Shown here piece by piece: positions 5,153 through 23,877 of a DNA stretch of 64,000 nt. Positions within the stretch are counted from its first letter, which is position 1, and every line of letters starts with the position of its first letter. A program made the translations under genes and the position numbers. The notes under the pieces were generated by a model. That model did no database searches and was not told where the DNA came from. It saw only the letters and a list, made by a program, of their open reading frames with translations. Source of the stretch: Convolutriloba macropyga (lineage: Eukaryota); NCBI RefSeq assembly GCF_964194025.1, contig NC_134476.1, positions 5,270,001-5,334,000 of the forward strand, given 5' to 3'.

Positions 5153-5214
5153 AGTAGTATAGTCGGTGCAGATGTGGGGGGTAGGTTCGGAGACGCTCCT
5201 GATTGGCTGAAATT
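5153..5214 (+). repeat. Left terminal inverted repeat (62 bp)
   Basis: AGTAGTATAGTCGGTGCAGATGTGGGGGGTAGGTTCGGAGACGCTCCTGATTGGCTGAAATT; 61/62 match to the reverse complement of 23816-23877. Confidence 0.97.
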
Positions 5215-5320
5215 CTACCAATCCCAGTACAAGGTTTTAGAAAATATTATTCTTTAAGTGAACTAATTTTATTATTGATATAATTATTGCGCGCGTGTGT
5301 GTTAATTAAACGAACTTTGT

Positions 5321-5503
5321 TTAAACAAAAGAAATCATATGAGAGTTTCGTGAGTATATTTAATTACTCTGAAGGTGTTAAAATTTTATTTAAAGTAATA
5401 ACAAAAGAGTATGGGTTAAACAAAAGAAATTGAATTAGTGTTCCTCGAGTGGACTTAATTACTCTGAAGGTGTTAAAATTTTATTTAAAGTAATAACAAA
5501 AGA
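5321..5503. repeat. Left subterminal direct repeat, 2 x ~95 bp
   Basis: TTAATTACTCTGAAGGTGTTAAAATTTTATTTAAAGTAATAACAAAAGA occurs at ~5360 and ~5455. Confidence 0.85.
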
Positions 5504-5710
5504 AGGAGTATAATTTCGCTCAGATTATGTTTGAAACAGAAATGGGGTTAGATGAATAAAACAAAGAGTGATATGAAATGTTCGAAACCGAGTAAGCTAG
5601 TTGCAGATGTTTTATGATAGATTGTACGATATTTTTGTTTGGTACGGATAGATTCATTGTGTCACTTTTAAACCCTGAATACAGTTAAACCCAAATTTTA
5701 AATTTGCAAA

Positions 5711-6124
5711 ATGAGAACTTTTCACGAAAGCGTGAACGATTTGGAGGAGTGTCACTGTGAGATCTGTGCACCTTATGGTGTTTGGTTGTGGCTCCCCCTG
5801 TTGGAACGATGGTGGTTCAACCCAGCAGTGGGGAGTGTGCTCCATCCAAGAGTGGATATAGAGGAGGGGACAGTGGTTGAGCGTCGGGAGTCAGCCGCCG
5901 ACCCTCCTCCCAACAACTCACCAGCCACCAGAGACGAAGCTGTTAGCCCTCCACCATCCGACCCACCAACCAGCTCTCCTCAACAACTTCTTCGGATAGT
6001 GGTTCGGGCTTTGGCACCCGTTTCTCAACCGAGAAGAGGTCGCCAAAGGAGAAGCCGCTATCTGAAGAGGAGGCAAGCTCGGACAGTTGCTCGGAGACTA
6101 ATCCGTCAACTGTTCCGAGCGTGA
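5711..6124 (+). CDS. Polinton left-end protein, 137 aa (CxCxxC N-terminus, Pro/Ser linker, Arg-rich C-terminus); function unknown
   Basis: ATG-initiated, GC-rich ORF in AT-rich flanks. AATAAA overlaps the stop (6124-6129). Confidence 0.7.
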   Translation: MRTFHESVNDLEECHCEICAPYGVWLWLPLLERWWFNPAVGSVLHPRVDIEEGTVVERRESAADPPPNNSPATRDEAVSPPPSDPPTSSPQQLLRIVVRALAPVSQPRRGRQRRSRYLKRRQARTVARRLIRQLFRA

Positions 6125-6225
6125 ATAAACTGTATATATGTATATTTTTATATATATATTTTTCATCAGTAATAATTTACGTTATTGATGTCTTTTTATT
6201 TTAGCGAGAGAGAAAGAGATATAGT

Positions 6226-7885
6226 TTAGACATTGAATCTGGAAATGAGTGTTTGAGTTCATATAATACAAGCATGATTCCGGGCTGTTTTTTAAATGAT
6301 TTTGGGGGTAAAAATTGATGAAAAATTGTGCAAAAATTAGACATTGAATCTGGAAATGAGCGTTTGAGTGCATATAATACAAGCATGATTCCGGGGTGTT
6401 TTCTAAGTGATTTTCTGGGTAAAAATTGATGAAAAATCATGTATAAACTAGACATTGAATCTGGAAATGAGTTTTTAACCACATATAATTCAAGCATGAT
6501 TCCGGACTGTTTTTTAAATGATTTTGGGGGTAAAAATTGATGAAAAATTGTGCAAAAATTAGACATTGAATCTGGAAATGAGCGTTTGAGTGTATATAAT
6601 ACAAGCATGATTCCGGGGTGTTTTCTAAGTGATTTTCTGGGTAAAAATTGATGAAAAATCATGTATAAACTAGACATTGAATCTGGAAATGAGCTTTTGA
6701 CTACATATAATTCAAGCATGATTCCGGAGTGTTTTCTAAGTGATTTTCTGGGTAAAAATTGATGAAAAATTGTGCAAAAATTAGACATTGAATCTGAAAA
6801 TGATTATTTGACCACACATAATTCAAGCTTGATTCCGGGGTGTTTTCTAAGTGATTTTCTGGGTAAAAATTGATGAAAAATTGTGCAAAATTTAGACATT
6901 GGATCTGGAAATCAACGTTTGAGTGCATATAACACAAGCATGATTCCGGGGTGTTTTCTGAGTGATTTTCTGGGTAAAAATTGATGAAAAATCATGTATA
7001 AACTAGACATTGAATCTGGAAATGAGCTTTTGACTACATATAATTCAAGCATGATTCCGAGGTGTTTTCTGAGTGATTTTCTGGTTAAAAATTGATGAAA
7101 AATTGTGCAAAAATTAGATATTGTATCTGAAAATGATTAGTTGAGTGCATATAATACAAGCATGATTCTGGGGTGTTTTTTAAATGATTTTTTGGGTAGG
7201 AATTGATGAAAAATCACGTAAAAATTAGATATTGAATCTGGAAATGAGCGTTTGAGTGCATATAATACAAGCATGATTCCGGGGTGTTTTCTAAGTGATT
7301 TTCTGGGTAAAATTGATGAAAAATCATGGAAAAATTAGATATTGAATCTGGAAATGAGCGTTTGCGTGCATATGATACAAGCATGATTCCGGGGTGTTTC
7401 CTAAGTGATTTTCTGGGTAAAAATTGATGAAAAATCATGTATAAACTAGACATTGAATCTGGAAATGAGTTTTTAACCACATATAATTCAAGCATGATTC
7501 CGGACTGTTTTTTAAATGATTTTGGGGGTAAAAATTGATGAAAAATTGTGCAAAAATTAGACATTGAATCTGGAAATGAGTGTTTGAGTTCATATAATAC
7601 AAGCATGATTCCGGGCTGTTTTTTAAATGATTTTGGGGGTAAAAATTGATGAAAAATCATGAAAAAATTGGACACTGAATCTGGAATTGAGCGTTTGACC
7701 ACATATAATTCAACCATGATTCCGGGGTGTTTTCTAAGTGATTTTCTGGGTAAAAATTGATGAAAAATTGTGCAAAAATTAGACATTGAATCTTGAAATG
7801 AGTTTTTGAGTGCATGTAGTACAAGCATGATTGCGGAGTGATTTTGTAAGTAATTTTTGGGGTTAAAAAATGAAAAAAAAAAAGA
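6226..7885. repeat. Tandem array of 15 x 111-bp units inside the Polinton
   Basis: A CATTGAATCT-type anchor recurs at 6231, 6342, 6453, 6564, 6675, 6786, 6897, 7008, 7119, 7230, 7340, 7451, 7562, 7673 and 7784 (one unit is 110 bp). Confidence 0.97.
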
Positions 7886-7889
7886 TTTA

Positions 7890-7967
7890 TAAAAAATTCC
7901 ATAACTGGCAAAGAAACATCTTGAGACTGGCCTCAAGGTGTTTCTTTGCCAGTTATGGAATTTTTTA
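7890..7967. repeat. Palindrome/hairpin, 36-bp stem with 6-nt loop
   Basis: TAAAAAATTCCATAACTGGCAAAGAAACATCTTGAG-ACTGGC-CTCAAGGTGTTTCTTTGCCAGTTATGGAATTTTTTA; one mismatch (T:G). Confidence 0.95.
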
Positions 7968-8132
7968 AATTAACTTCGTTTTACCCAATCTGAGAGAACC
8001 GTTTAATCTTCCGAGCTAGATTGTGCTTAACTAGAGTGCTACGCCTCAGCGTGAACAGTGCACTTGATCTCTGATGACTTAAAAAGAAAACTTCAGAAAT
8101 TATTTTAATTCAAATGTTACGAAAATAAGAAA

Positions 8133-11100
8133 TCAAATATCCAACGGTTCAGTGTGTATTCCATCATCTTTCACTTTTCGTTTGGGGTAGAAGTAAGACA
8201 ATCCATTCTTTTTTAGTTCGTAAGTGCACACTTTACTTTTACCAATGAAACGAAAGCCACGATTTACTGTCTCGATTTCAGTTTGGTGTAGCAGAACATT
8301 CAAATACTTCTCCATTGGGGTATCATTCAACAAAGTGTTTTTGTTTATTCCTTTGCTACTAATCTTTACTTTTCCTGAGGTCTCATCTAAACAACAATAT
8401 GTTTTTGAACACAGAGCCACCATTTCTGTGCAGCGAAACTCTTCTTTGAACAGTCCAGGGGTTCTCTGATCAAAGTGGTTGTGTTCCGGACAGCATTCTC
8501 GAGGGAAAAAGTTGTATTGTCCATCAGCTTCAAAGTCAGGGCGACAATCTGCTAAATGTAGCGAAGTCCACGCATCTTCTCTATCAGATCTGATTATTTC
8601 GGGAATTGTTCTCTCAGAAATAGCTAAATATAGACTGTCAGTGTCGGTCTCGATAAATTCATATTTGGAAGGGTCACAAAAGTTGTCGAAAAATTCATAC
8701 ACAAGTTGTAGCATTGTTAATTTGGCGTATTGGAGAATAAAAAAACCTACAATTATAGGTTCCTTGTGCACAACTTGACATTTCTTCAATTCTACTTCAT
8801 AAATCTGTCTAGGAAGTTCGTTCAATTTCTGAAAGAATCGATTATTGATCAGTTTGTCGACTGCGGTTCCTAGGACGTATTTTGTTCGACTATGACGACT
8901 CCTATCCATAATTTGATACCCGTACGCACTATTGCCAATAAGTTTCATAGTTTCCGCAATCACTGTCGAGTTTTTGTTCTTGTCTCCTTCACGCCGAGCA
9001 GTAACAACCGATTGCACAAAAGAGTTAAAACACTTAACTGGTGTGTACTGTAGAAAGAAGTGAATCTTCTTCAAAATGAGTCCATGTTTTAAATAGAATA
9101 GAAGCAATGGAGTAATGAGAGGTCCGCGCTGTAATTTCATGCTTGAAATTAACATACGTCTTGGTTGGGTCATGATTTTCTTTTCCATTGCAAAATTGAG
9201 CATATGATCACCAACATCATCCAAGGATACGTTACAGTTTTTAAAAATAGGAGGAAACTTTGAGAACTTCTCTTTCAAATGATCCGGTACTTGGACCTCA
9301 CAATCCACTACACCAAAAAAATGTTCCCTCAAAATCTTGTTAACTAATTGATCTTCTCGCATGGAAGTAACATATGGAAAATTTTCGGACATAAATTTTT
9401 TCGCACCATTCCTGTTTTCGCGAACCCATGTCCACCAGGTACAATCCCAAATCTCCTCAATTTGATATCCTAAGTTTCTGATGTAGTCGCGTCGATACTC
9501 AGTCCTTTCACGTCTCTTCAATCCTTTTTCAATATCTTCAAGTAAAAGATTCTTCCGTTCTTGACATGTACAAAAGTGATAAAAGCATCCCATTGCCTCA
9601 AAAACTGTATTGCAGTGCGCACAGTAACCATCAACTGCAAAACGTCCAATTTTTTTCTGCTTAGCACTTGTGAATTGTGTCTGTATTGTACACTCTGGCC
9701 TACTCTTTTGAATGAATTGTAAAACTATCTGTTCGAAATAACTCCGTTTGTCACGTCGAGGGTGAAAAGGTTCGTTTGCTCACAATATTCCCATTTGACG
9801 TATACACCCGACGGCATCTGTTGCGTCATAGCATAAGGGTATAGCTGACTCGCATCAATACCAACAATAGCTCTACACAGGTTGTCAGTGTTCTCCAGAA
9901 AAGTTTCCCCCACTTTGGCATAACGGTTAAAAATAATGCTGGGTCCACCAGTTAACCACTCTCTTATGTAGTCATCATAAAAACTATCTTCCTTTGAAAA
10001 AGGAAAAAACTTAGTTGACGTGGAGTTGTGAAGTATTCGATTTGCTAGACTAGGGAGTGTTAAACCTAGTTTAAGCATGTCAATGTTAATGTTATGATAA
10101 AATGATTTCATCTTTATCATAGCTGTTAATGTTGGTTGTACATCTTTGTTATTGTACCAACGTAGGAAATCAAGAAAAGATGTCATGTTTTGTTCTCTCC
10201 AAATAAATTGTAACTTCTCATAGTTTTCTTCTTTGGTTAGAGGAACTGATGTTAACTTGAGTTTCTTCAAAACCTCATGTTCACTCTTCCCACACCGCAG
10301 TTCTCGTTCAAACTCTCTGAAATCGCTTTCAAGAACATTACAATTCTTCAATTTACTGTAAAAAGAATCGATGGGAGGAAGGTGGTTTAAACTCAACTTA
10401 TCAACATTGTCGAACCACTCATAAGGGAAAAATCCTTGACTCTTCACAACCATAGGCTTTGAGGAATTTGTCAAGACTAGTTGTTCCTCCCAAGAAATTC
10501 AAAATATCAAGAAATTGAATACCAAGACATTTGAAGCCTAGAAATTGATTACATTTCTGGACGACAGAAGGAGTGCACTGATACTCTCGCAAAAGAATAT
10601 CTATCAGGTACTCTTTGATTAGATTTAGATCGTAGCGAGAACTGTTAAAACCAAAAACTGGTAAAGTTTCAACGTAATCTTTTAAATCGTCCCTTAGTTT
10701 GCTCAAAGTTCTTTGTTCATAACGTAATGTTTTCAGTTCATGATCTTCTTCCTCCTCTTCAGCGGTATCTTCAGCTTCAGCCATTGAGTTCAAAAAATTC
10801 GATGTTTCACTTAAATCCTCTCCGTCATTCTCTGATGGAAGACGATTTTTCAAATCTTGATATCGTTTTTCGAGAACGTCAAACTGTGTTCGGAAGAGGT
10901 TACGATAGTGAATTGAACTTTCATTTGATAATCCAACCAGAGTTGTTAAAAACGAGCGTACGAGTTCGAAGGGATCCGAGTTGTACAAGAAAACTGTTTC
11001 CTGTAGAAGGTTGGAAGCTATTGAAACACTAACAGGAACATGGCGACCAATCCATTTCGTTCTCTCAGTGTCACAGAGTTGATCATCTTTAACCGTTATC

Positions 11101-12491
11101 GACTCAAAATCAAAAACAGCTAAATTTTGAAATATTTTATGCTCTGCTTCAACTTCTATACCCACATCCTGTAAACGTTCAAAAATTGTTGAATCAAGTT
11201 GATAGGGTCCCGAAGGATAAACATGCTTGATGTTTTCTTTGCAGTTAGGAACATGTTTTAAAAGAATTTTTGTTCGACTGAAGAAATGATCACAAGTCAA
11301 ACATCTGAACCTTTTCAGAACTGTATCGATATCGTCCGTCCAACAGATGTGATCATCATACTGTAAGAGAGAGATTGTTTGCTGATAAGTATGTGCTGAC
11401 CTCCTACTGAGTTGTCCACAGAGCGTTCCGGATTCATCGTAGCATATTTCAAACAGTTGTATATTACACTTCACTAGATTTTCAACTATTGATATCTCAT
11501 TGGAACAGACACCAGGGAAATTGAAAAGGTCTTGATTGGTTAAATTTATGAAAGATTCGAAGAGTTTGAAGGTTTCTGTTGCTAAATTTTGGGAACCAGA
11601 CAACTCGAAAGCAACAGCACGGAAAAGACATAAGTTATCATGGTATGGTTTCCTGTTACAGTCTCGAAGTAAACACTTGATTCCTTTGTGTCTTAGGAGC
11701 GATTCAGGTAAGTGGATTTGACTACAAGCCAACGGTACATCAATTAAAAGATAAACGAAGAATGATACATTAGTGACGGAATGGAAAATCCACTTCGTAT
11801 CTGGTCGTCTTGATATCAAACTCTCCAAAATTTCGCTTCTATCAATTTCATTTTGAATAACAGCTATATCAGAGAAGTTCGATAACAATAACGGAGTGGG
11901 GAATATGGTGTTGTTATCAGCAGGGTAAAAATACTTGAATGCATCCTCTTCGTGTACGTTTTGTAGCACGGACCCAAAGGCTAGGTTAACTTTTGCGGAG
12001 CATGAGAGTTCATTGTAGATAAGTTCAACTTTTTCTTTCAACACATTAGTATCGATCTCTTTGATTCTAAAATTATAAATTTTTTTACGAATCAATTCCG
12101 TTTTACTGTCACGTAAAAAATGTTGAAGACTTCTCATTTCCTCCATAAGTTTGGGATTGTTATCAAATTCGGACAAGTCAACAGGATCCAGATTCTCTGA
12201 TCTCATAGTTATCTTATGAGTTTCTGAAATGTGTTTGCGAAGTTGATAAAACGTGCTGTACGTATTCGTACAATTGGTACAACTGAAAATATTTCGGTCT
12301 CTGGAGGATTTGTTCTTGTTCGTGACATGTATTCGCACATGAGTTAGTAGTCTTACTTTCGTTTTGAAGGAGGAAGGACAGGACGAACATTTGAAAGGGT
12401 GATTATGAGTATCAAGGTGTCTTTTCAAGTTTTTCAGAAGAATCCGCTTCCCACACTGCTCACAGTTTTTCGTTTCCAAACTTTTGACCAT
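8133..12491 (-). CDS. Protein-primed family B DNA polymerase (~1450 aa if repaired), split into three ORFs by indels at ~10437 and ~9760
   Basis: Three N-terminal C2H2 fingers; OTU-like DNLCLFRAV...YDDHICW; ExoI VFDFES; ExoII GFNSSRYD; GFFPYEW; ExoIII YNNKDV; motif A IDASQLYP; Vsr-like VDGYCAHCNTVFEAMGCFYH; motif B KLIGNSAYG; motif C TDTDSL. Confidence 0.95.
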
Positions 12492-12493
12492 GA

Positions 12494-13126
12494 CTATTTT
12501 TTGATAGTAAAAGAAAGATGGTTAGACTGAAACGTTCTCTGACCTTTGGAAATAGAACAAAATAATTGTAGAAATTCACTTCCAAGTTCTGATTGTAAAA
12601 TCTTTGACAGGTCACACAAAAAGGAGATAGGAATGACTTCAGTTGAACCAGTAAGATGATTGGATGTGTTCCAGGATAAAAGATATCTACTTTGCTTCTG
12701 GTAAAATTTAAAACGCTTACGGAGAAGTCTTTTCTTAGCAACACTCGGTCTTTTCAAAGCTATAAACGGTAAACTTCGATGAAATTCTGAGGCTTCAGTT
12801 AACTTTTGGAACAGTTGTCCACTCTGTTTGAGTACGTTTCTGAAATAGTAATGGTAAGCCGTAAACAAACAATCAACTGTCTGATATCTAAATTCTATAA
12901 GATCAAATTTTTCTGGTGAAAAGATAGAGTTTGAGCGATCGTACAAAAGTGTGTGGAAGTTACAGTTCTTGTTTTTACATGAAGATGATGAATGAGAAGA
13001 TAATGAGAACTGTTCAAATCTTTCGAGAAAGATAGGACTAGGTTTTAGACCTGTGCAGAGAAGAACACATCTATCACTGAAAGTAAGGAAAAACGGTGGG
13101 AACAACTCAGAGTGTCCACAAGCCAT
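12494..13126 (-). CDS. Polinton hypothetical protein, 210 aa, Cys/His-containing with a basic patch
   Basis: Long ATG ORF whose stop lies 2 bp before the pPolB ATG; KRPSVAKKRLLRKR is NLS-like. Confidence 0.75.
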   Translation of the reverse strand: MACGHSELFPPFFLTFSDRCVLLCTGLKPSPIFLERFEQFSLSSHSSSSCKNKNCNFHTLLYDRSNSIFSPEKFDLIEFRYQTVDCLFTAYHYYFRNVLKQSGQLFQKLTEASEFHRSLPFIALKRPSVAKKRLLRKRFKFYQKQSRYLLSWNTSNHLTGSTEVIPISFLCDLSKILQSELGSEFLQLFCSISKGQRTFQSNHLSFTIKK

Positions 13127-13490
13127 AATCGTAATTTACTCCGAACATTTCAACTCTTGTTTTCTTTTTTTTTACATTAAATTTCCTTTTAAGGATACAA
13201 TAGATTAAAAGGGTCATAAATTGTTGTTTACATCTAATGACGGTATGAATAAAAATAGGATGATGTCATGACCTGATAGATTATTGGTTAACGAGGAAGA
13301 AGATATGATATTATAATGACGCAACCGACTCTGATAACCAATCAGTAATTAGTTCATAGCATCATTCTATTTTTATCATCCAATCAGAATAAACACGAAG
13401 TAGTTCTTCAATCTTTCACTCGAATCTCATTCTTATTTGTTTTCCTTGGATACTGGTGATAAAAATTGAGACAAATTAATTATTTCCATA
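13127..13490. promoter_or_regulatory. Putative bidirectional promoter between the replication and accessory gene blocks
   Basis: Lies between divergent ORFs. ATTGG at 13283, CCAAT at 13338 and 13380, ATF/CEBP-like TGACGCAA at 13317. Confidence 0.55.
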
Positions 13491-14177
13491 ATGAGTGAAC
13501 AGGGAAATGATATTTCAACAAAAAATTTGGAGAGCAAATCGATGTTGGAAAAATATCGGGAGGTTGGATTTCTACAAGATGCTTATGAATCTGACTATTT
13601 TGCTGATTTCATTGCTTATCCTAATAGAGTTTTCCGACTTTCATTACCTAAATCAGTCGATGGAAACAATCTACCCACTAATTGGATTCATCTAAAACTT
13701 TATCGTCTGACGACCGAAAAAATGATGTTACATCAGATCATGTTCCTCTCTATCTTTGAGGTACAAAAACTTGTTTACAACCTCCCAGGAATAATGCGTT
13801 TTGCTGAAGAATCGTTCCGAAGGAATCCAAACAACATTTCACAGGAGGGAAACGCAGTGGTAGATTACGGATTTCTAACACCAGAGCAGGATGCTGAGTA
13901 CTGTGATCAGTATTGGGATGTCTTGGAGACTGCTAGGCGAAAACTACGAGTGTCAACAGTTTGGTACGAAAAACAAGACTTCTCCAGGACATACTTCCAA
14001 ATCAAACTTTTTACGAGAAAGTCGGTTGATGCTGAATTCGTGAAGAAGGGTTGTGTCATCATTCGAGTGGGAGAAATGCAAAAAATGATTGACCATTCAG
14101 ATGCAATGATTGAGCAGATGGCGCGTGAATCTTTCCGAAGAACCTCAACATCAATGTTAAACAACAAAAAAGAATAA
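13491..14177 (+). CDS. 228-aa protein with an internal duplication; putative tandem PC4-like ssDNA-binding domains
   Basis: Both halves end in ESFRR and show a beta-strand then helix pattern resembling PC4. AATAAA overlaps the stop. The CDS is well supported; the fold is inferred. Confidence 0.6.
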   Translation: MSEQGNDISTKNLESKSMLEKYREVGFLQDAYESDYFADFIAYPNRVFRLSLPKSVDGNNLPTNWIHLKLYRLTTEKMMLHQIMFLSIFEVQKLVYNLPGIMRFAEESFRRNPNNISQEGNAVVDYGFLTPEQDAEYCDQYWDVLETARRKLRVSTVWYEKQDFSRTYFQIKLFTRKSVDAEFVKKGCVIIRVGEMQKMIDHSDAMIEQMARESFRRTSTSMLNNKKE

Positions 14178-14280
14178 AACTATGTGAACTCATATTAATT
14201 TGTCATTGTTGATGCTAATGATTTTGTGTACAAAAAAAAATAAAAAATTCATTCCAAAAAATTCTTTCATTTATTGTAGT

Positions 14281-14673
14281 ATGATTAACATTGGAGAAAA
14301 TCGTAGAATAATTTTAAAAACTTTAGAGAAAAAATCTGTAACTTTTTTCTATTTAAGAGTTTTTGAGCTAGCAAACCATCGAAAAACTCTACAACTAACA
14401 TTTTTGGAAGCTAAAAATCTCCCAGCAGAGTTACAAAATCTCACGAAATTATCGTTCTCAAACGGACGAAGGCTGATTGAGTTAAATAAACTCAACAAAG
14501 ATCAGTATAAACTCATAGTTTATCAGTACAAGAAAGATCATTTCGAAATTCGTCAAATTGTTATTTTAACAGAGAGTGAGTATAAGAATTTGTACAAATA
14601 CATCCAATCTCATCAAATTCCTGAGGAAGACACCTTCAGTCCCGAAATTGATTTAGATACATCTATCAGATGA
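14281..14673 (+). CDS. 130-aa protein; putative tandem PC4-like domains
   Basis: MINIGENRRIILKTLEKKSVTFFYLRVF...LQLTFLEAKNL resembles PC4 [25 protein letters not shown]...ISLNPEQWSQL. ATGA overlap with the next gene. Start at 14281 is my choice. Confidence 0.6.
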   Translation: MINIGENRRIILKTLEKKSVTFFYLRVFELANHRKTLQLTFLEAKNLPAELQNLTKLSFSNGRRLIELNKLNKDQYKLIVYQYKKDHFEIRQIVILTESEYKNLYKYIQSHQIPEEDTFSPEIDLDTSIR

Positions 14674-15080
14674 ATCTCGAAACAATTTTCAACAACAAAC
14701 GAATACTGAGTTGTGACTATAGCGAGTTAGACATAGGTCAACGCAAGCTTTATTTTCTTGCAACTTGTCTTTCAATAAAAGCAGATGTTGATATTCATCA
14801 AGTGAACGAATTATGTCCCTATGGAGGATTGATCGGTGTTGGGAATTCACAGCTCGAAAAAATTTTTGGAGGATCAAAAATTTTGAGAATGCATGCTATG
14901 ATTCACGACGCATGTGGTTTTATGAAATTTAATTATGGTGAAGGACCCGGTTACTGTTATATGATTCCGAATGCTCCTGACTGGATGAATAAGTGTGTAC
15001 TTGGTCACGTGACAGGAGTCCTGTACTGTCTATACTTGAAAACATTTCAGAACTGTTCATTCAACAAAATTGATATTTGA
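14670..15080 (+). CDS. Phospholipase A2-like protein, 136 aa
   Basis: YGGLIGVGN (Ca-loop-like) followed by HAMIHDA (His-Asp dyad), as in viral PLA2 domains. Confidence 0.65.
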   Translation: MNLETIFNNKRILSCDYSELDIGQRKLYFLATCLSIKADVDIHQVNELCPYGGLIGVGNSQLEKIFGGSKILRMHAMIHDACGFMKFNYGEGPGYCYMIPNAPDWMNKCVLGHVTGVLYCLYLKTFQNCSFNKIDI

Positions 15081-15771
15081 TAATTGGTCGAACCGAAAAA
15101 AAAAGAATCTGGTAGTAGTTGTTGATGTGGAACTATTCCCCAACGGTATCGTCAAAGAAATTGGGATGTATAGAAATGGTACAATTATTGGACTCTCTTT
15201 TTGCGCCCCCTTTCCGTACGAAGATCTTGAAAAATGGGAGAAACGACAAACCAAATGGTTAACCAAGAACCTTCACAAGATTGACTGGTCATCGGGTGAA
15301 ATACCTTACGACTACTTACCTTATGTTATAGATCTAATTCGAGAACCTCAGATAATTGAAGAGAAACAACTTGATGGTGAATTATGGTGGAGTAAATTGA
15401 AATACATTTCACTGATTGAAAAGGAAGATTCGTTTCCAACTGGTGAAATAAAATTACAGCGTGAGAAAAGTACAGCCAACGATATTAGTGGGAAATTGAT
15501 ATACTTTGCGAAAGGACTCCAGAAGTGTACTCTTCTATCATCAATTTTTCACGAAGATTTTGTTGATTTGGATACTATACTTTGTCCGACAGCTGAAGAA
15601 CTACATGAACAATACATGAACACTGAAAAAATCTCAGAGTGTGCACAATACCCAGTGGAGCATGGAGGAAATTTTACAAAACATTGCGCTCAGAAAAAAG
15701 TTCACTTATTTGGTATTTGGCTTCAAAAACAGCAAGAGTATGAAAACTTTGTAAACTGTCTTGTCAATTGA
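15070..15771 (+). CDS. DnaQ/DEDD-fold nuclease-like protein with Maelstrom-like Zn ligands; start codon unresolved
   Basis: VVVDVE...VKEIG, WLTKNLHKIDWSSG, YFAKG, DLDTILCP, C...H...HCA. No in-frame ATG before the DxE motif (the ORF track uses TTG). Confidence 0.65.
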   Translation: MIFDNWSNRKKKNLVVVVDVELFPNGIVKEIGMYRNGTIIGLSFCAPFPYEDLEKWEKRQTKWLTKNLHKIDWSSGEIPYDYLPYVIDLIREPQIIEEKQLDGELWWSKLKYISLIEKEDSFPTGEIKLQREKSTANDISGKLIYFAKGLQKCTLLSSIFHEDFVDLDTILCPTAEELHEQYMNTEKISECAQYPVEHGGNFTKHCAQKKVHLFGIWLQKQQEYENFVNCLVN

Positions 15772-15838
15772 TTGTGTTCTGTAACTGAGTCATTAAATTG
15801 AATTCAATTCTTTAAAACAGTTCGTTTTTACAACAGGA

Positions 15839-16141
15839 ATGATGAAAAAAGATTTAGAAACAAATAACGGAAAAGATGAGGTTGATGGGTTTACGGGTGG
15901 TTTAACTCAAGATATTGTTTTTGATCATACAAACCAAGAAAGGAAACCTTGGACAATTTGTGGTAAAAACTGTTCCAGATCGTTTCTAGTCTTTATGTAC
16001 CAGTGCTTATTGATTCTGATTCTTACTACGATGAGTATTATTCGGATAACATTGGCTGAAACGTGTGAGGAAACGACCATTTGGGTGGCTGTACTGACAA
16101 GTTCTGTTGGCTACATGCTTCCATCTCCTCGTCCGACATAG
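15839..16141 (+). CDS. Small two-transmembrane protein, 100 aa
   Basis: Two hydrophobic helices (FLVFMYQCLLILILTTMSII; IWVAVLTSSVGYMLPSP), a pattern I recognise from Polinton small membrane proteins. Confidence 0.75.
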   Translation: MMKKDLETNNGKDEVDGFTGGLTQDIVFDHTNQERKPWTICGKNCSRSFLVFMYQCLLILILTTMSIIRITLAETCEETTIWVAVLTSSVGYMLPSPRPT

Positions 16142-16210
16142 GGAAAAAATTTTGGAGTAAGTAATTGTATTGATCTTGAGAGGTTTTATATCAAATAATT
16201 GGTGCCTGAC

Positions 16211-16360
16211 CGCGAGCGCCGGATTTAATTTCGTAACGCGTCGTCGGTTTTAAATTAAAGACGCGTCGGCGGTTTTAAATTAAAGACGCGTCGGCGGTTT
16301 TAAATTAAAGACGCGTCGGCGGTATTAAATTAACTACGCGGCGACGGTTTTAATTCAACA
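16211..16360. repeat. 6 x 25-bp tandem repeat upstream of the ATPase/structural block
   Basis: Consensus ACGCGTCGGCGGTTTTAAATTAAAG, at 16236, 16261, 16286, 16311 and 16336, plus a degenerate copy at 16211. Confidence 0.93.
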
Positions 16361-16475
16361 ACGCAACGCAAGAAATTTTTTTGATCAATTCTCAAGAAGT
16401 CATTTGTTGATTTGATAACAAAAAGATTAGTTACTCCTCAAAAGAAGAAAAACCGTTGACCAAAAAGTTGAAAAT

Positions 16476-17228
16476 ATGAATAAAATTATCTCAACCGATG
16501 AAAGAGTTTTTATGGCATTAGTTGGTCCCAGTGGCTGTGGGAAAAGTTACCTGATTTACGAAATGTTGAAAAATAAAACGTTTTATCCAAAGTTTGATAA
16601 GATAATCTATTTTTACAAATACTATCAGAATCTTTACGATCGAATGTTGACTGATTTAGATAATATCGAATTCATTGAAACACCTGATTTCGAGCTGATT
16701 GAAAATTTACCAAACGATGGAACGAACTATCTGATAATTTTTGACGATTCCTGTGAAGAGATTTCAAAGTCTAAAGAATTTAATCAATTAGCAACAGCAG
16801 GAAGACATAGAAAGCTTAACTGTCTCTACATAAAACATAACCTATACCATAAAAACTCTGGAGGTAGGGATGCAGAGCTTCAAAACACACATATCGTTCT
16901 GTTTAAATCTCCTCGAGATGTGCAACAGATTGGAGTCTTGGGAAAACAGTTAGGTTTAGGTAAGCAATTAGTGTACTGGTACAATGACGCAACAGCAAAA
17001 CCATACGGACATCTAATGATTGATCTCTCTCCGCGAACTCCAGATATATTACGTTTCAGCACAAATTCCACATCATTTCCATCTTTATTCTTCCTACCAA
17101 ACAGTAAGGCTCGCACAACAGAGATTGATGATAACCGTGCAGAACTTCTATATGCTAAAGCTCTTTCTAGAATTCAAGCCGAACCTCCAAAAAATTGTCC
17201 TCCAGAATTGTTCCAAGGAATTTATTAG
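16476..17228 (+). CDS. Genome-packaging ATPase (FtsK/HerA, A32-like)
   Basis: Walker A GPSGCGKS, Walker B LIIFDD, AGRH motif, HIVLFKSPRD. Confidence 0.95.
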   Translation: MNKIISTDERVFMALVGPSGCGKSYLIYEMLKNKTFYPKFDKIIYFYKYYQNLYDRMLTDLDNIEFIETPDFELIENLPNDGTNYLIIFDDSCEEISKSKEFNQLATAGRHRKLNCLYIKHNLYHKNSGGRDAELQNTHIVLFKSPRDVQQIGVLGKQLGLGKQLVYWYNDATAKPYGHLMIDLSPRTPDILRFSTNSTSFPSLFFLPNSKARTTEIDDNRAELLYAKALSRIQAEPPKNCPPELFQGIY

Positions 17229-17481
17229 ATTCCTCTGTGAATGTACCAAAAATTTAGTCTTAGGCAAATTTGAAAACATCAAAAAATCACAGGTGAAAAA
17301 ATTTGAGGGTTGTTTGAAAAGAATACTATCCAAAAACACATCACAGAAGGAACGTCGTTTCTTGTTATCCTCAAATCGCGGACTACAACTTATAAATTTT
17401 CTAGGACAGTTCGTGATTTCCAAGTTCTCATCAAACTTCAACTCGGATGGGAACAGAAAAATTGATAAACAATTCGACTAA
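17152..17481 (+). CDS. Conserved small Polinton protein downstream of the ATPase (~109 aa, amphipathic C-terminus)
   Basis: FLCECTKNLVLG motif and position overlapping the ATPase 3' end. Start at ATG 17152 is my choice. Confidence 0.75.
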   Translation: MLKLFLEFKPNLQKIVLQNCSKEFIRFLCECTKNLVLGKFENIKKSQVKKFEGCLKRILSKNTSQKERRFLLSSNRGLQLINFLGQFVISKFSSNFNSDGNRKIDKQFD

Positions 17482-18052
17482 AAAGTTTGTTTTGATACCA
17501 CAACAACTGTGGGATAGATATAGTTCATTAGAAGTTACAAATAAAAACGTGCAACTTGATACTACTAAAACAGTGAGTTCAACCGAAGAACAAACACCCA
17601 CCAATTCAATATTCGTGAAACAAAAAGAAGAGAAGATTGAAAAATCTATTCCTCAAACGCAGAAAGTTGAATTGGAAGGAACCGAAGACCAAAAGTTGGA
17701 GGAAACTGTTAATGGTGAAAAAACCGAACAACTGAAGAAATTTTTCATGCTGAAAATAAAAACAAACGGATACAAAAAGAAAATATTACAGGAATTGTTC
17801 AAATCAGACGCAATCAAATTCTCCAACGATTTAACAATCATAGCCAATAACGTTGACACAAATATTCCTGTTCTCTCATTCATTGACACCATTCGTAGCT
17901 CAAAGAAACGAGCGTTTACGGACCTACATCAATTAGTACTAAATACAGTAAACATCCCTTCCCAACTTATAGTTAACCCCAATGCCATCAAAAACAAACA
18001 AATTAAAAAGTCGGACCAAGAGAAAATTGGATGGGTACCTTTCACTTTCTGA
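17447..18052 (+). CDS. Conserved Polinton protein preceding the integrase, 201 aa
   Basis: N-terminal KKFVLIP motif, C-terminal W, syntenic position; overlaps both neighbours. Confidence 0.75.
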   Translation: MGTEKLINNSTKKFVLIPQQLWDRYSSLEVTNKNVQLDTTKTVSSTEEQTPTNSIFVKQKEEKIEKSIPQTQKVELEGTEDQKLEETVNGEKTEQLKKFFMLKIKTNGYKKKILQELFKSDAIKFSNDLTIIANNVDTNIPVLSFIDTIRSSKKRAFTDLHQLVLNTVNIPSQLIVNPNAIKNKQIKKSDQEKIGWVPFTF

Positions 18053-18974
18053 CAGGATGAAGTTGACTAAGCTATATCGCAAAGGAGAAAGTGCCTACGG
18101 TTCTATAAAAAATCTCGTTAGAGTGAGTGGAATTCCAGAAAGATTGGTAAAACAGTTTCTTCATTCCAAAGCATCCTATACAAAACATCGACAAGCAAAG
18201 CGTAAACATGATCGATTACCGGTGAGATGTCGTTTTATTAATGAAATTTGGTGTATGGACTTGGCACAGGTTGACAAACTTGCAGACAGTAATGGAGTAA
18301 TAAAGTATTTAATGCTAATTGTGGATGTATTCTCTCGATTTGTTCGTGTCGGTACAATGCGAAACAAAAGCGCAGAGACAGCTAAAGCTTGTTTCATCAA
18401 CCTTTGTTCAGAAAAAAATGATCTCATTTTCCCTCGGAAACTTTGGATAGACTCAGGAAAAGAGTTTTTGGCAGACTTTAAGAACTTTTGTGAGGATGCG
18501 GGTATTCGAGTATATAGTACTCACACAGAAAAGAAAGCATTGTTTGCTGAGAGGTACATTCAGTCCTTCAAAAATATTTTGTACCGTTTCCTTGAGGAAC
18601 GTAAAACCACTCACTACAAAAAACATCTTCAAGAGTTTGTGAACAATATGAACAGCCGAGTCAACAACACAACAGGTCTTGCGCCCAAAGATGTTAGGAA
18701 TCACCACTACTTACAAGTTCTTCATTCCAGTCGACAGCAAATGAAGATTCCGAAGCTAAGAAAACCGAAATTACAACCGGGTGATAAAGTTCGCTTAGCT
18801 TATGCAGAAAAAAGTTTTCGCAAAGGGTACAAAGCACAGTTCAGCGACGATGTGTACGAAATTGTTCGAATAACAACTATCAAACCTGTCGTGACTTACC
18901 AAGTTAAAGATGAGACAGGAGAAACCTTAAAAGGTCGGTACTACGAACAAGAACTACAAAAAACAATCATTTGA
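17982..18974 (+). CDS. Retroviral-like DDE integrase (Polinton c-integrase)
   Basis: WCMD, VDVFSR, WIDSGKEF, AERYI; C-terminal GDKVRL...FRKGY...YYEQELQ. Confidence 0.96.
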   Translation: MPSKTNKLKSRTKRKLDGYLSLSDRMKLTKLYRKGESAYGSIKNLVRVSGIPERLVKQFLHSKASYTKHRQAKRKHDRLPVRCRFINEIWCMDLAQVDKLADSNGVIKYLMLIVDVFSRFVRVGTMRNKSAETAKACFINLCSEKNDLIFPRKLWIDSGKEFLADFKNFCEDAGIRVYSTHTEKKALFAERYIQSFKNILYRFLEERKTTHYKKHLQEFVNNMNSRVNNTTGLAPKDVRNHHYLQVLHSSRQQMKIPKLRKPKLQPGDKVRLAYAEKSFRKGYKAQFSDDVYEIVRITTIKPVVTYQVKDETGETLKGRYYEQELQKTII

Positions 18975-18976
18975 TT

Positions 18977-19816
18977 ATGGACTATCATATTGTTGAGTTG
19001 CTATCCAATGCTTCTGATAAAATTTATCCAGATAATACACTTTCATGCTTCACAGTATTTTTACCCGAACAGTTAAACTTTGAGGGTGAGTGGGAAGTAG
19101 CGCTACTAGAAATTTTGCACCCATCAGCGTACAACAACATTTCCGAGGGTAAATTTTGGTATGTTGATTCAAAATCCGATTCTAGAGATGAGACGCAAAC
19201 TAACCCTGACACAGGTCTAAGCATTAAGCTAGACCCTATTTACATTGCTCCAGGTCTTTATATGTCCTTAGCAGAAATTCTTCTTGCAATGAATGATGCT
19301 CTGGGGAAGATAAGACCGAAAGAGAAAGTTAACATCAAGTGGAGTTTGGATAATGTTTCAAGCAAAGTAAAAATAACTCTTCCCTCAGAAAACTCCCAGT
19401 TGATTGTTGCAAACCAAGACTTAGCATCAATCTTAGGTTTCAAATCCAACTTCTGGCTATACACAAAAGGTCCACATATCAGTCAGTACCCGATTGATAT
19501 CCTCAGAATTCATTCTGTAATGGTTTACACAGACATTGTAGAGTACAGCATAATTGGAGATACCAAAGCTCCTATACTCCGAACTTTTCCTTTCAACCAA
19601 AAAGTTCAACACGGGAATATATCGGTTACTAAATTCATGAGCTACACTTCGTTTCAAAATCTTCATTTCCGTAAACTGTTAAAAAACTCGTTTCAGACAA
19701 TCAAAATAGAACTTCGATCACAAACTGGAGAGTTAATCCCTTTCGTTGATAGGGGTCTAACTAGTTTAGTTCTTCTCTTTCGCAAAAAGCAATCACTTTC
19801 AGTTAATCACCCCTAA
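18977..19816 (+). CDS. Minor capsid protein (penton)
   Basis: LLSNASDKIYPDNTLSCFTVFLP...WEVALLEI, VYTDIVE...IGDTKAPILR; typical Polinton penton motifs. Confidence 0.9.
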   Translation: MDYHIVELLSNASDKIYPDNTLSCFTVFLPEQLNFEGEWEVALLEILHPSAYNNISEGKFWYVDSKSDSRDETQTNPDTGLSIKLDPIYIAPGLYMSLAEILLAMNDALGKIRPKEKVNIKWSLDNVSSKVKITLPSENSQLIVANQDLASILGFKSNFWLYTKGPHISQYPIDILRIHSVMVYTDIVEYSIIGDTKAPILRTFPFNQKVQHGNISVTKFMSYTSFQNLHFRKLLKNSFQTIKIELRSQTGELIPFVDRGLTSLVLLFRKKQSLSVNHP

Positions 19817-19819
19817 CAA

Positions 19820-20167
19820 ATGGCAGGCTATAATTCTTTACCATACTTTAGCGGAGTACCTCGTCAAAGAGGACGTGGTCTGGGTGCTTTTGCTGGTACA
19901 GTGGCTCGTTCCGCTTTCCCAATACTGAAAAAATATTTTGTACCCGCAGCCAAAAGAATTGGAAAAGATCTAATTGAAGCCGCGATACCTCAAATCGATG
20001 AAGTGATGTCAGGTCGTAGTAATATTAAAAAAGCTGCAAAGCGTACAGCTACTGCAACTCTTAAGAAACAGTTGGGAGCAGGACCTCCACGGAAAAAGTC
20101 TAAACTGAAGAAATCGAAAGCTCCGCGAAAGAAAAAGAAAAAAAATCACTTCAAAAAAATCACGTAA
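19820..20167 (+). CDS. Basic virion core protein with protease-cleavage-like Gly motifs; may extend to 20207
   Basis: QRGRGLG and QLGAG motifs, Lys/Arg-rich tail. A 1-nt shift in the A run near 20140 would end it KSRKQTSRQDYLKHLP* just before the hexon ATG. Confidence 0.85.
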   Translation: MAGYNSLPYFSGVPRQRGRGLGAFAGTVARSAFPILKKYFVPAAKRIGKDLIEAAIPQIDEVMSGRSNIKKAAKRTATATLKKQLGAGPPRKKSKLKKSKAPRKKKKKNHFKKIT

Positions 20168-20215
20168 GCAAACCAGTCGTCAAGATTACTTGAAACATTT
20201 ACCTTAAACAAAACG

Positions 20216-21457
20216 ATGATTCCAAATTCTGTACAACCAGACTGCTTAGATATCTTTGAGGAAATATCTATTCTGAACTCTATTACAAGATGTGACGAAC
20301 AAAAAATTTACCCAATAAATTCTCTCAATGAATCCAGTATTGACTTTTCATTTGTAACTGACAGAAATGTTTTCACCGACCTTCGAAAAGTTGACATGTA
20401 TCTGAAAGTTAAACTTGTCAAAGATGGGAGACCTGTCACCGCGGAGGATGATGTTTGCTTAGTTAACAACTCCATGCACTCTTTGTTCTCAAACTGTGAA
20501 GTAACATTTAACACAGATCAAGTTTACACCACAAACGGTCTCTACGCGCATAAAGCCTTCATGTCTAACGAATTCTCGGGTACACAGGGAACAAAAGAAT
20601 CTATCAGTTGTTGTCAGGGCTATAGCTACGAACAGTCACCCGGCGATTTTGAACACGAACCAGCAATCGTGAAAAGAAAGAAGGACAATCTAGAGGAAAT
20701 GGAGTTTTATGGTGAATTACCAATCGAAATTTTTAACTGTAAAGGGCTTCTTCTACCTAACGTTACAGTTCATATTAAATTAATCAGATCGCGACCCCAG
20801 TTCTATTTAATGTCATCAAAATCAGAAAATATTCATGCAGTTATAACGAATACCTATCTCAAAATAAGAACCTTGACAGTCGACGAAGGTAGTTTTCAAA
20901 TTATTCGTAAAAAACTTGTAGAAACTCCAGCCAGGTTTAATGCTTTGGAACTTAAACCCAGAACTTTTATCATTCCAGCGGGTCAAAACCAATTTATACA
21001 TGAAAACATTTTCAACAACGCTCCAATTCGAACACTCGCCATTGCGATGAACACAAATAGTGCTTTCACCGGTGATAAAAGTGGAAATCCTTTCCATTAT
21101 CAAAAATTTGGTTTACGAGAAATCAAAATATCGAGAGGGAATCAAGTTGTTGTGCACATGGATACTAGTAGAAATTGTGTTCCATACATTACAACAATGA
21201 GAGCTTTAAAATTCTACCAAGACGGTCCTAACATTAAAATTAATGACTACGAAAACCATTTTTGTTTGGTTTTTGATCTAACCTCTACACAACAATCAGA
21301 ACTGATGATTCACTATCCTGATGTCATTTCAGCAAGCTTGAGACTTGAGCTATACTTCAGAGAAAATTTAACGAACACTATCGAAGTAATAGTCGCTGGT
21401 GAACAGTTGTCATCTATTTTCATTGACAAAAACGGAAAAGTAACGAAAAATGGATAA
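20216..21457 (+). CDS. Major capsid protein (hexon, double jelly-roll), 413 aa
   Basis: VNNSMHSLFSN, LLLPNV...LIRS, AFTGDKSGNPFHYQKF, LVFDLT; lies between core and protease genes. Confidence 0.92.
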   Translation: MIPNSVQPDCLDIFEEISILNSITRCDEQKIYPINSLNESSIDFSFVTDRNVFTDLRKVDMYLKVKLVKDGRPVTAEDDVCLVNNSMHSLFSNCEVTFNTDQVYTTNGLYAHKAFMSNEFSGTQGTKESISCCQGYSYEQSPGDFEHEPAIVKRKKDNLEEMEFYGELPIEIFNCKGLLLPNVTVHIKLIRSRPQFYLMSSKSENIHAVITNTYLKIRTLTVDEGSFQIIRKKLVETPARFNALELKPRTFIIPAGQNQFIHENIFNNAPIRTLAIAMNTNSAFTGDKSGNPFHYQKFGLREIKISRGNQVVVHMDTSRNCVPYITTMRALKFYQDGPNIKINDYENHFCLVFDLTSTQQSELMIHYPDVISASLRLELYFRENLTNTIEVIVAGEQLSSIFIDKNGKVTKNG

Positions 21458-21848
21458 CACACAAATAGAAACAATAGTAGCACTTATTCCTGTTCTGAAA
21501 TATAAGTTTATGGGTTGCTACCCTTCGAACTTATTACCGAACGACATACCGGAAAACTCTTTCTACATTGTTAACACTGATGTGTCGAATGGTAGAGGGA
21601 TTCACTGGATTCTATTAGCCCGAAAAAACAGTTGCTATTACTATGGAGACTCTCTTGGAAGAGACATCAATCACTATGCAAACATTAAGTTCACCAGAAA
21701 AACTCGTAAACTGATCGCTTCCAAACTTCAAACTGATAGTATTTGTGCACTATATTCAATTTACTTTGCCTATGTACTGTTTAATAATTTGTCCTTGTTC
21801 AATGTTGACGATGCTTTTATAATGAGATTTTTTGCTGAATATTTATAA
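21450..21848 (+). CDS. Adenain-like cysteine maturation protease
   Basis: IVNTD...GIHW (His), GDSLG (Asp), LQTDSICALY (Gln/Cys). Confidence 0.92.
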   Translation: MDNTQIETIVALIPVLKYKFMGCYPSNLLPNDIPENSFYIVNTDVSNGRGIHWILLARKNSCYYYGDSLGRDINHYANIKFTRKTRKLIASKLQTDSICALYSIYFAYVLFNNLSLFNVDDAFIMRFFAEYL

Positions 21849-21914
21849 TTCATTTTTTTATAATCAACAACTTTTTCAATCTTGTACAAACATAACAGTT
21901 GTAGTTTCAATTAT

Positions 21915-22580
21915 TCAAAAGGTAGTTGCATGCTCATCATCCGAGTCATCAAAAAGTCTTCCTCTTCTAGCTTTTTTCACTATCGGTACCCAGTATTCAC
22001 ATTCATCATCTGTTTCCTGATCTTCGTCAACTCTCCAAAACCTTTTTGATGAAACGTCTTGGAAGCGAACCATCTTTTTGGGTGCTCGCGTTACAGACGA
22101 TGACGATGAAGTTTCATTCTCGTCCATTCTCGGTGTACTCACGTCTCCGTTATCATTTTCCGTTCGCGGTCCCAGACCCCATAACAACCTCACATCAACC
22201 TCATCACGAAGAGAACCTAACTGGTTCTCATACATTGGCATTTTGGAAAGTTGATATGCAGCAAACTCCTCTCTAACACCCTCACTCAACATATCTGAAC
22301 CAATGGGGAGATTTCCCAAAGATAAATTGATAACCGATCTCTCCGTTCGATAAAACCAGGGATCAACTTGTGTGTAGGGAAGCTCTATCATCGTCTCACT
22401 CCTACTACTGTTCACTTCAGTGAAGTTCTCCATTACAATACGAGGAATAACAACCTTTCCAATTATTACCCAAGTGTTGTCCACTAATTTTTCATGTACA
22501 ATAAACACATCATCAGGATTCTCGTTGATAAGATAAACGTATCGCTCAAACTCACCCTTTTTCACAATTTTTACTTCCAT
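21915..22580 (-). CDS. Polinton right-end protein, 221 aa, acidic disordered C-terminus with an RVxF-type motif; 5' end probably spliced
   Basis: Long ORF convergent with the protease; KKMVRF. Candidate GT-AG intron 22674-22583 ends 2 nt before the ATG. Confidence 0.75.
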   Translation of the reverse strand: MEVKIVKKGEFERYVYLINENPDDVFIVHEKLVDNTWVIIGKVVIPRIVMENFTEVNSSRSETMIELPYTQVDPWFYRTERSVINLSLGNLPIGSDMLSEGVREEFAAYQLSKMPMYENQLGSLRDEVDVRLLWGLGPRTENDNGDVSTPRMDENETSSSSSVTRAPKKMVRFQDVSSKRFWRVDEDQETDDECEYWVPIVKKARRGRLFDDSDDEHATTF

Positions 22581-23758: not shown

Positions 23759-23815
23759 CTATTGTTCTCAAGTAAACACTTAATAACTACACAAAAATTG
23801 ATATTTTCCCCTCAA

Positions 23816-23877
23816 AATTTCAACCAATCAGGAGCGTCTCCGAACCTACCCCCCACATCTGCACCGACTATACTACT
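23816..23877 (-). repeat. Right terminal inverted repeat (62 bp)
   Basis: Reverse complement of 5153-5214 with one mismatch; followed by the TSD TCTATT. Confidence 0.97.

What the first reader, a model, noticed from the sequence alone, without database searches (positions are those of the whole stretch)
6226..7967. 15 x 111-bp array abutting a 36-bp-stem palindrome inside the Polinton: origin- or tether-like module
Seen: a 1.66-kb array (about 9% of the element) between two convergent genes, ending directly at a near-perfect dyad. Known: repeat-family-plus-dyad layouts act as origin, enhancer or episome-tethering sites in other DNA viruses (EBV oriP, baculovirus hrs), whereas Polintons are thought to replicate from their termini. 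Inference: a cis-acting module for episome maintenance, packaging, insulation or small-RNA production that the standard Polinton model does not explain.
Basis: partly seen in the sequence, partly recalled or inferred. Interest (0 to 1): 0.72.

Follow-up and report, generated by a model that had tools for sequence, protein, structure and literature searches.

The report
Variable repeat array inside Polinton
One family of virus-like jumping elements (Polintons) in an animal genome carries a non-coding 111-base repeat whose copy number changes quickly, next to a hairpin that was only recently perfected; it is likely a tolerated spacer between two facing genes rather than a replication origin or tether.

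Summary
Observation confirmed: 15 x 111 bp (6226-7880) and a 36-bp-arm dyad (7890-7967) inside an 18.7-kb Polinton. Both belong to the element: exact unit and dyad motifs occur at the same 6 loci, all copies of this family, and 5 of 5 checked have their own 6-bp target duplication. It is not a host satellite. It is not oriP- or hr-like either: the unit is not palindromic and shares no sequence with the dyad. Unit number runs 13-21 among copies over 99% identical, 3-10 in older ones. The outer stem is recent: three older copies share an unpaired state and one young copy is intermediate, as arm-to-arm template switching predicts. Array and dyad are no better conserved than neighbouring spacer, are non-coding, and lie beyond both genes' poly(A) hexamers. 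Other Polinton families here lack this module but have unrelated arrays. Closest analogue: fowl adenovirus TR2. No RNA data. The scan had no sequence look-alike, only notes on other Polinton hairpins and arrays.

The parts
5153..23877 (.). Polinton/Maverick element, 18,725 bp, AGTAGT...ACTACT ends, 6-bp target-site duplication
   Evidence: 62-bp terminal inverted repeats; flanks; rve integrase and A32-type ATPase by Pfam
5711..6124 (+). 137-aa accessory ORF with Arg-rich tail; AATAAA at 6124 overlapping its stop
   Evidence: ORF; dN/dS 0.23 and 0.51-0.55 against older copies; hexamer; no Pfam or PHROG family
6226..7880 (.). 15 x 111-bp non-coding minisatellite with phased A-tracts; unit number varies between copies
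7899..7957 (.). Older core of the dyad (about 18-25 paired positions in older copies)
   Evidence: 12-bp arm motif at 6 of 6 intact loci; alignment A2; significance per copy
7890..7967 (.). Full 36-bp-arm dyad, present in 3 of the 4 youngest copies only
8029..8066 (.). 38-bp block between dyad and polymerase stop; the best-conserved non-coding stretch here (picked after the fact), role unknown
   Evidence: 37/38 and 36/38 in older copies; Fisher p 0.014 against spacers
8002..8109 (-). Two ATTAAA hexamers (8104, 8002) behind the polymerase stop, before the dyad
   Evidence: an ATTAAA close behind the stop also in L030, L035, L056
8133..12491 (-). Polymerase gene, split into three ORFs in this copy; read as protein-primed family B polymerase
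   Evidence: ORFs; homologues with frames of about 1,440-1,485 aa elsewhere in the genome; label rests on recalled family-B motifs and context, since Pfam, PHROGs and PDB gave no hit for the catalytic part

Best explanation
The array and dyad are an inherited, non-coding, length-variable stretch of one Polinton family, lying between the 3' ends of two facing genes, and they likely act only as a tolerated spacer where the two transcripts run out. Shown: the module travels with independently inserted copies; unit number changes by block duplication and loss while the end units stay fixed; the outer part of the stem is recent and nearly every recent change lies in one arm and makes it match the other; both genes have ordinary poly(A) hexamers before the module. 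Inferred: unequal recombination or polymerase slippage drives the array, and fold-back template switching perfects the hairpin, both favoured by the long single strand displaced in protein-primed replication (mechanism recalled, not tested here); the older 18-25-bp core may help stop read-through but nothing here shows that it must.
For: 44 exact unit matches and 12 strand matches of the dyad motif fall at the same 6 loci, reversed-pattern controls 0; all lie at the same place in copies of this element; 5 of 5 checked have distinct 6-bp target duplications. Anchors: 15, 21, 16 plus a hybrid, 13 in copies 99.2-99.7% identical; 10 and 3 in copies about 92% and 87% identical. Units 1, 2 are identical in the four young copies, inner blocks are duplicated. 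L030, L035 and L056 share a 2-nt gap and unpaired outer right arm; L021 is intermediate; the left arm is unchanged. Dyad core against spacers: 92/102 vs 204/238, p 0.29; in L056 37/53 vs 77/109, p 1.0. No synonymous excess in any of 6 frames, p 0.15-0.97. AATAAA at 6124 (+), ATTAAA at 8104 and 8002 (-). Of 40 stretches from or beside Polinton copies screened only L056 (a distant member of this family) hit the unit; 0 of 6 whole family-C elements hit unit or dyad. Other families hold unrelated arrays of 21, 29, 111-128 and 137-142 bp. The same loci show large tandem duplications. Fowl adenovirus TR2 runs 0-13 copies of 135 bp (PMC10987918, passages and Table 3). Template switching can create and keep perfect stems (PMC8794818, abstract).
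Against: The layout last unit-dyad-polymerase survives to 68% identity and no integrated copy of this family with both array and dyad cleanly absent was found (L038 lost the dyad in a deletion that also took the polymerase end). Five stem pairs change on both sides, 1 of 500 shuffles, though relatedness, alignment register in L056 and template switching itself can give this. A-tracts in the unit are phased at 10-11 bp, p 0.007. Family B has a 14-15-bp-arm dyad about 160 bp behind its polymerase stop, between convergent genes (p 0.05, 0.09, 0.63), and family C has arms kept at 12-13/13 while spacer and flanks are about 60-75% alike: some Polinton dyads may be selected. Only 8 loci in one genome were compared; old copies mix lineage change with decay after insertion.
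Confidence: 0.55

Rival explanations
1. The dyad is a working RNA hairpin: a shared 3'-end or termination signal for the two convergent units (Mimivirus/Sputnik hairpin style) or the precursor of a small RNA.
For: Sits in the convergent gap; core significant in 4 of 5 family copies tested, p <=0.01; 5 double-sided changes; positionally similar dyad in family B at 127 strand matches; hairpin poly(A) signals at 16 Sputnik genes (PMC6723459, passage).
Against: Both genes have canonical hexamers before it; the element's other convergent junction has no dyad (score 7, p 1.0); the most distant copy is weak (RNA z -2.1; DNA z 0.0; p 1.0); no dyad behind the polymerase in 7 regions of families C, D, E, F; Rfam hits all far below gathering score (best 47 vs 86 bits); no shared Pol III A/B box pair, 1 of 10 strands vs 23 of 200 shuffles, and no 11-mer target elsewhere in the element.
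Confidence: 0.17
2. The array is a protein-binding or length-adjusting element: an enhancer, a packaging signal like adenovirus A-repeats (recalled), or stuffer that keeps the genome near capsid size.
For: 84 of 111 columns are at least 90% invariant among 41 distinct units, with phased A-tracts; subterminal arrays recur in families B, C and D; Maverick length varies only about 10% around 17 kb (PMC8097293, passage).
Against: Homogeneity is what concerted evolution gives anyway; last-unit identity equals spacer identity (71/82, 69/82, 53/75); unit 10-mers are not enriched elsewhere in the element (65 vs 117 +/- 18); copy number spans 3-21; no similarity to other families' units (p >= 0.05).
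Confidence: 0.17
3. An oriP/hr-like internal origin plus tether for an episomal form.
For: Layout resemblance only (repeat family beside a dyad); EBV FR also blocks transcription and replication forks (PMC2654434, abstract and passages).
Against: In oriP both parts are clusters of sites for one protein; here unit and dyad share no sequence and the unit is not palindromic. The element has its own termini, integrase and target duplications. Most Polintons in the genome lack the module.
Confidence: 0.05
4. A host satellite, MITE or Helitron fragment that landed in the element.
For: Repeat-plus-hairpin is a Helitron/Helentron-derivative layout (recalled).
Against: All 47 DNA matches (7 loci) and 44 motif matches lie in copies of this element; colinear in a copy 68% identical. 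Caveat: the genome search skips very common words and an extinct donor would not be seen.
Confidence: 0.03
5. The 111-bp (37-codon) array encodes a repeat protein on the minus strand.
For: Minus-strand ORFs of 195 and 204 aa; AATAAA on the minus strand at 6195.
Against: No synonymous excess; 13 of 41 and 26 of 41 units have a stop in the two most open frames; longest open stretch falls to 47 codons in L035; 109-110-bp units break frame.
Confidence: 0.02

Closest known systems
Fowl adenovirus D tandem repeat TR2 (135 bp, 0-13 copies; PMC10987918, passages and Table 3)
   Same: Variable-number array of 110-135-bp units in a linear virus of the same PRD1-adenovirus lineage (lineage per PMC8097293, passage); copy number differs between close relatives; function unsettled in the passages read.
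   Different: No sequence link tested or claimed; TR2 can be wholly absent, whereas no intact copy here lacks the array; no adjoining dyad mentioned in the passages read; this element integrates.
Quasipalindromes perfected by template switching (PMC8794818, abstract; PMC8604942, search listing)
   Same: Several changes in one arm all restore pairing; intermediate state seen in a close copy.
   Different: Here it is in a mobile element, and whether it happened during element replication or in the chromosome is not known.
EBV oriP (FR plus DS; PMC2654434, abstract and passages) and baculovirus hrs (recalled)
   Same: Repeat family next to a dyad; 15-20 units.
   Different: Unit is 111 bp and not palindromic, shares no site with the dyad, one locus only, no known initiator or tether protein identified, element integrates and has terminal repeats.
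Mimivirus/Sputnik hairpin polyadenylation signal (PMC6723459, passage)
   Same: Long AT-rich hairpin downstream of a gene, in a convergent gap.
   Different: Only one such hairpin in 18.7 kb; genes have AATAAA/ATTAAA hexamers; animal Polintons are presumed (recalled) to use host polymerase II.

Membership tests
Polinton/Maverick (host element) | Terminal inverted repeats with (AGT)2//(ACT)2 ends and 6-bp target duplication | tested here: met
   definition in PMC8097293 passages
Polinton/Maverick (host element) | rve integrase and packaging ATPase | tested here: met
   PF00665 E 1.3e-10, PF04665 E 3.7e-6
Polinton/Maverick (host element) | Protein-primed family B polymerase, capsids, protease | tested here: inconclusive
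   No Pfam, PHROG or PDB hit; labels rest on recalled motifs, size and gene order
EBV oriP-like (FR + DS) | Repeat and dyad hold the same protein-binding site | tested here: not met
   Local alignment of unit to dyad no better than shuffles, p 0.53-0.89
EBV oriP-like (FR + DS) | Palindromic site in each unit (recalled for FR) | tested here: not met
   Unit fold z -0.4 to +1.9; longest perfect stem 5 bp
EBV oriP-like (FR + DS) | Element-encoded binding protein; episome replication and retention in cis | not testable with these tools
   Several ORFs have no family; needs binding and plasmid assays
Baculovirus hr | Several dispersed loci of palindromic repeats (recalled) | tested here: not met
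   One array, one dyad in the element; unit not palindromic
Hairpin-rule poly(A) signal | Hairpins at most gene ends | tested here: not met
   One inverted repeat of score >=12 in 18.7 kb; none at the second convergent junction
Hairpin-rule poly(A) signal | Transcripts end inside the hairpin | not testable with these tools
   No RNA holder listed
miRNA precursor | Known family or conserved arm; processed small RNA | tested here: inconclusive
   8 Rfam hits, all below gathering; arm identity no higher than spacer; no Pol III box pair; no small-RNA data
Host satellite or MITE | Copies outside the element | tested here: not met
   0 of 44 motif matches and 0 of 7 loci outside this Polinton family

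The most novel reading that the evidence does not exclude
Polintons carry a family-specific, turnover-prone cis module at the point where opposing transcription units meet: a protein-bound, bent repeat array plus a hairpin that together block read-through and double-stranded RNA (hiding the element from host silencing) or yield an element-encoded small RNA; unrelated dyads and arrays at comparable places in other families of this genome would be convergent versions of it.
Probability: 0.15. Interest if true: 0.7.

Novelty: new variant of a known kind. Interest (0 to 1): 0.3.

Why it matters
Non-coding cis elements of Polintons other than their termini are barely described in the papers searched. 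This family gives a natural series (3 to 21 units; weak, intermediate and perfect hairpin) that shows how such elements arise and change, and warns that a long perfect dyad in these elements can be a recent copying product rather than a sign of function. If the module did prove to be a transcription barrier or small-RNA source, it would be a first regulatory element of that kind for animal Polintons as far as these searches reach.

Tried and rejected
Relatives outside this genome: polymerase query found none in viral or metagenome contigs (2 and 25 pattern stretches, none confirmed); unit motif 0 in both. RNA: no RNA holder listed. Variation of the dyad among other individuals was not obtained. 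Family D units first looked palindromic (z -5.9 against dinucleotide shuffles) but not against shuffles that keep homopolymer runs (z -0.1 to +1.1): rejected. A general rule 'dyad at every convergence' was rejected: family B marginal, none in 7 other post-polymerase regions, and a 16-bp-arm dyad in family C lies 5' of a gene. My first reading that family C elements share this element's working termini was dropped: the shared 62-300 bp lies inside a longer terminal repeat. Coding array, Pol III hairpin gene and arm targets: rejected. Polymerase dN/dS across broken copies is unreliable and is not used as selection evidence. GC skew shows no origin-type switch that array and gene strand do not explain. 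Literature: 10 searches; those pairing polinton/maverick with tandem repeat, satellite DNA, subterminal, palindrome, hairpin listed no description of an internal array-plus-dyad in the rows shown; word searches in PMC8097293 and PMC8502044 found no palindrome or hairpin. No supplements were read; Kapitonov and Jurka 2006, Pritham 2007 and Repbase entries were not seen and may describe such repeats.

Full report
Observation. Tandem Repeats Finder gives 6226-7880, period 111, 14.9 copies, 85% matches. The inverted repeat has arms 7890-7925 and 7932-7967, one mismatch, 6-nt loop, folds at z -12.3 and is the only inverted repeat of score 12 or more in the element (0.15 expected). The element spans 5153-23877 with 62-bp terminal repeats, AGTAGT/ACTACT ends and a 6-bp target duplication, an rve integrase and an A32-type ATPase. 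The polymerase, capsid and protease labels are mine, from recalled motifs, size and gene order; Pfam, PHROGs and PDB gave no hit for them.

It belongs to the element. Two units used as query matched 47 places at 7 loci; all 7 sit beside this family's polymerase. An exact unit motif matched 44 times and a dyad motif 12 times (both strands), at the same 6 loci, with 0 for reversed controls. Five of five copies checked have their own 6-bp target duplication. The seventh locus (L038, about 77% identical) keeps 2-3 worn units and has lost dyad and polymerase end in one deletion. An eighth (L056) is colinear over last unit, dyad and polymerase at 68% identity. The search skips very common words, so a highly diverged host family cannot be wholly excluded, but the host-satellite reading has no support.

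The array is a fast VNTR. Four copies 99.2-99.7% identical carry 15, 21, 16 plus a hybrid, and 13 anchored units; copies about 92% and 87% identical carry 10 and 3. The first two units are identical in all four young copies and inner blocks are duplicated. Among 41 distinct units (one of 42 dropped as misaligned) there is no synonymous excess in any of six frames (p 0.15-0.97) and 13 or 26 of 41 have stops in the two most open frames, so the 37-codon period is not a gene. The unit does not fold, its longest perfect stem is 5 bp, it shares nothing with the dyad, the terminal repeat or the conserved block, and its 10-mers are not enriched elsewhere in the element. Its A-tracts are phased at 10-11 bp (p 0.007 against run-preserving shuffles), which suggests bent DNA but is common in satellites (recalled). 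Whether unit changes happened during element replication or after insertion is not known; the same loci also hold tandem duplications of 1.4 to 9 kb.

The 36-bp stem is recent. In the alignment of seven copies the full stem is in the window, L026 and L027. L030, L035 and L056, three separate insertions, share a 2-nt gap and an unpaired outer right arm, so that state is older and not independent decay; L021, over 99% identical to the window, is intermediate. The left arm is essentially unchanged and all but one of the derived right-arm changes restore pairing. That is the pattern expected from arm-to-arm template switching (PMC8794818, abstract). The older core is significant in the window, L021, L030 and L035 (p <= 0.01) but not in L056 (RNA z -2.1; DNA z 0.0). 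Five pairs change on both sides (1 of 500 shuffles), which counts for a maintained stem but is also what template switching produces, and some depend on alignment register in L056. Core identity does not exceed spacer identity (p 0.29 and 1.0); the best-kept non-coding piece is a 38-bp block at 8029-8066 (p 0.014, chosen after the fact).

Position. The 137-aa ORF looks real (dN/dS 0.23-0.55) and has AATAAA at its stop; the polymerase has ATTAAA at 8104 and 8002. Both point into the gap and precede the module, so array and dyad probably lie in the read-through zone of both genes. No RNA holder was listed, Rfam hits are all below gathering score, and no shared Pol III box pair or internal target exists.

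Other families. The polymerase query scored 88 of 4,461 candidates; 84 of the 88 are 55-63% identical and belong to other families. Among 40 stretches screened, only L056 hit the unit; 0 of 6 whole family-C elements hit unit or dyad. They have their own arrays: 111-128-bp units inside the terminal repeats in 4 of 5 family-B end pairs, 21-bp units in the fifth, 29-bp units in 3 of 3 family-C pairs, and 137-142-bp units just behind the polymerase at two family-D loci; none resembles the 111-bp unit beyond p 0.05. Dyads also recur: family B has 14-15-bp arms 42-43 nt apart, about 160 bp behind the polymerase stop and before a convergent gene, marginal against run-preserving shuffles (p 0.05, 0.09, 0.63); family C has 13-14-bp arms beginning AATAAA behind the protease gene, arms 12-13/13 identical where spacer is about 62% (p 0.01, 0.03). 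Seven other post-polymerase regions and the window's second convergent junction have none, and another family-C dyad lies 5' of a gene. Arrays and dyads are thus common and family-specific in these elements; a shared function is possible but not shown.

Comparison. In oriP both parts are clusters of sites for one protein (PMC2654434, abstract and passages); that is not met. Hairpin poly(A) signals mark 16 Sputnik genes (PMC6723459, passage); here there is one hairpin and ordinary hexamers. Terminal palindromes are reported for protist virophages and PLVs (10.64898/2026.07.28.741278, passages); this one is internal. The nearest analogue is fowl adenovirus TR2, 135 bp in 0-13 copies (PMC10987918, passages and Table 3). 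Maverick size is constrained to about 10% around 17 kb (PMC8097293, passage), which keeps a stuffer role open. Word searches of PMC8097293, PMC8502044, PMC6431247, PMC12220804 and PMC12166591 (passages only) found no internal array or dyad in Polintons; supplements, the founding 2006-2007 papers and Repbase were not seen.

Verdict. Real, heritable and family-specific; most likely a tolerated variable spacer with a recently perfected hairpin (0.55), with a working RNA hairpin (0.17) or protein-binding or stuffer array (0.17) as live rivals and an oriP-like module unlikely (0.05). Interest 0.3.

Noticed in passing
L053:5831-5904, L063:3313-3387, L065:3470-3543; also L096, L099, L100, L103, L105: Family-C Polintons carry a tRNA-Met (CAT) gene just inside the terminal repeat next to the protease gene (5 of 6 whole elements); it looks like an initiator tRNA (recalled features).
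   Followed up: partly
window 23570-23877; L096-L107, L050, L063: This family's terminus (AGTAGT end, 62-71 bp, plus 101-bp units) is embedded at 92-98% identity inside the longer 29-bp-array terminal repeats of family-C elements, at both ends in 6 of 6 fetched; flanks there are inverted, not direct, repeats. Suggests nested or exchanged termini between families.
   Followed up: partly
L063:3584-3664, L065:3745-3823, L074:6737-6817: Dyad with 13-14-bp arms that begin with AATAAA on either strand, arms conserved while the 51-55-nt spacer diverges: candidate two-way poly(A) or protein-binding dyad.
   Followed up: partly
L040:663-735 and 127 strand matches genome-wide: Family-B dyad (14-15-bp arms, 42-43-nt spacer) between convergent polymerase and protease genes; marginal against run-preserving shuffles.
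   Followed up: partly
L035 and L078 (G000:C5:70.323-70.339 Mb): The left 1.4 kb of an old copy (terminus plus 137-aa ORF) is repeated head to tail at least 10 times.
   Followed up: no
L023/L077, L032, L069, L087: Large internal tandem duplications (about 9 kb; 3 x about 3 kb) and inverted duplications of polymerase regions in several copies.
   Followed up: no
window 23276-23758, 5321-5503, 16236-16353: Other arrays in this element: 101 bp x 4.8 next to the right terminus, 95 bp x 1.9 at the left, 25 bp x 4.7 upstream of the ATPase; they hold CCAAT- and E2F-like words (recalled motifs) and are better promoter candidates than the 111-bp array.
   Followed up: no
window 8029-8066: 38-bp non-coding block more conserved than its flanks and about as conserved as polymerase coding sequence; unexplained.
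   Followed up: partly
window 42727-42871, 27938-28077, 63451-63610: Host-side inverted repeats with 43-51-bp arms and 43-74-nt spacers, MITE-like; an RVT_1 ORF at 53222-54496 and an exportin-7-like ORF at 59957-63325.
   Followed up: no
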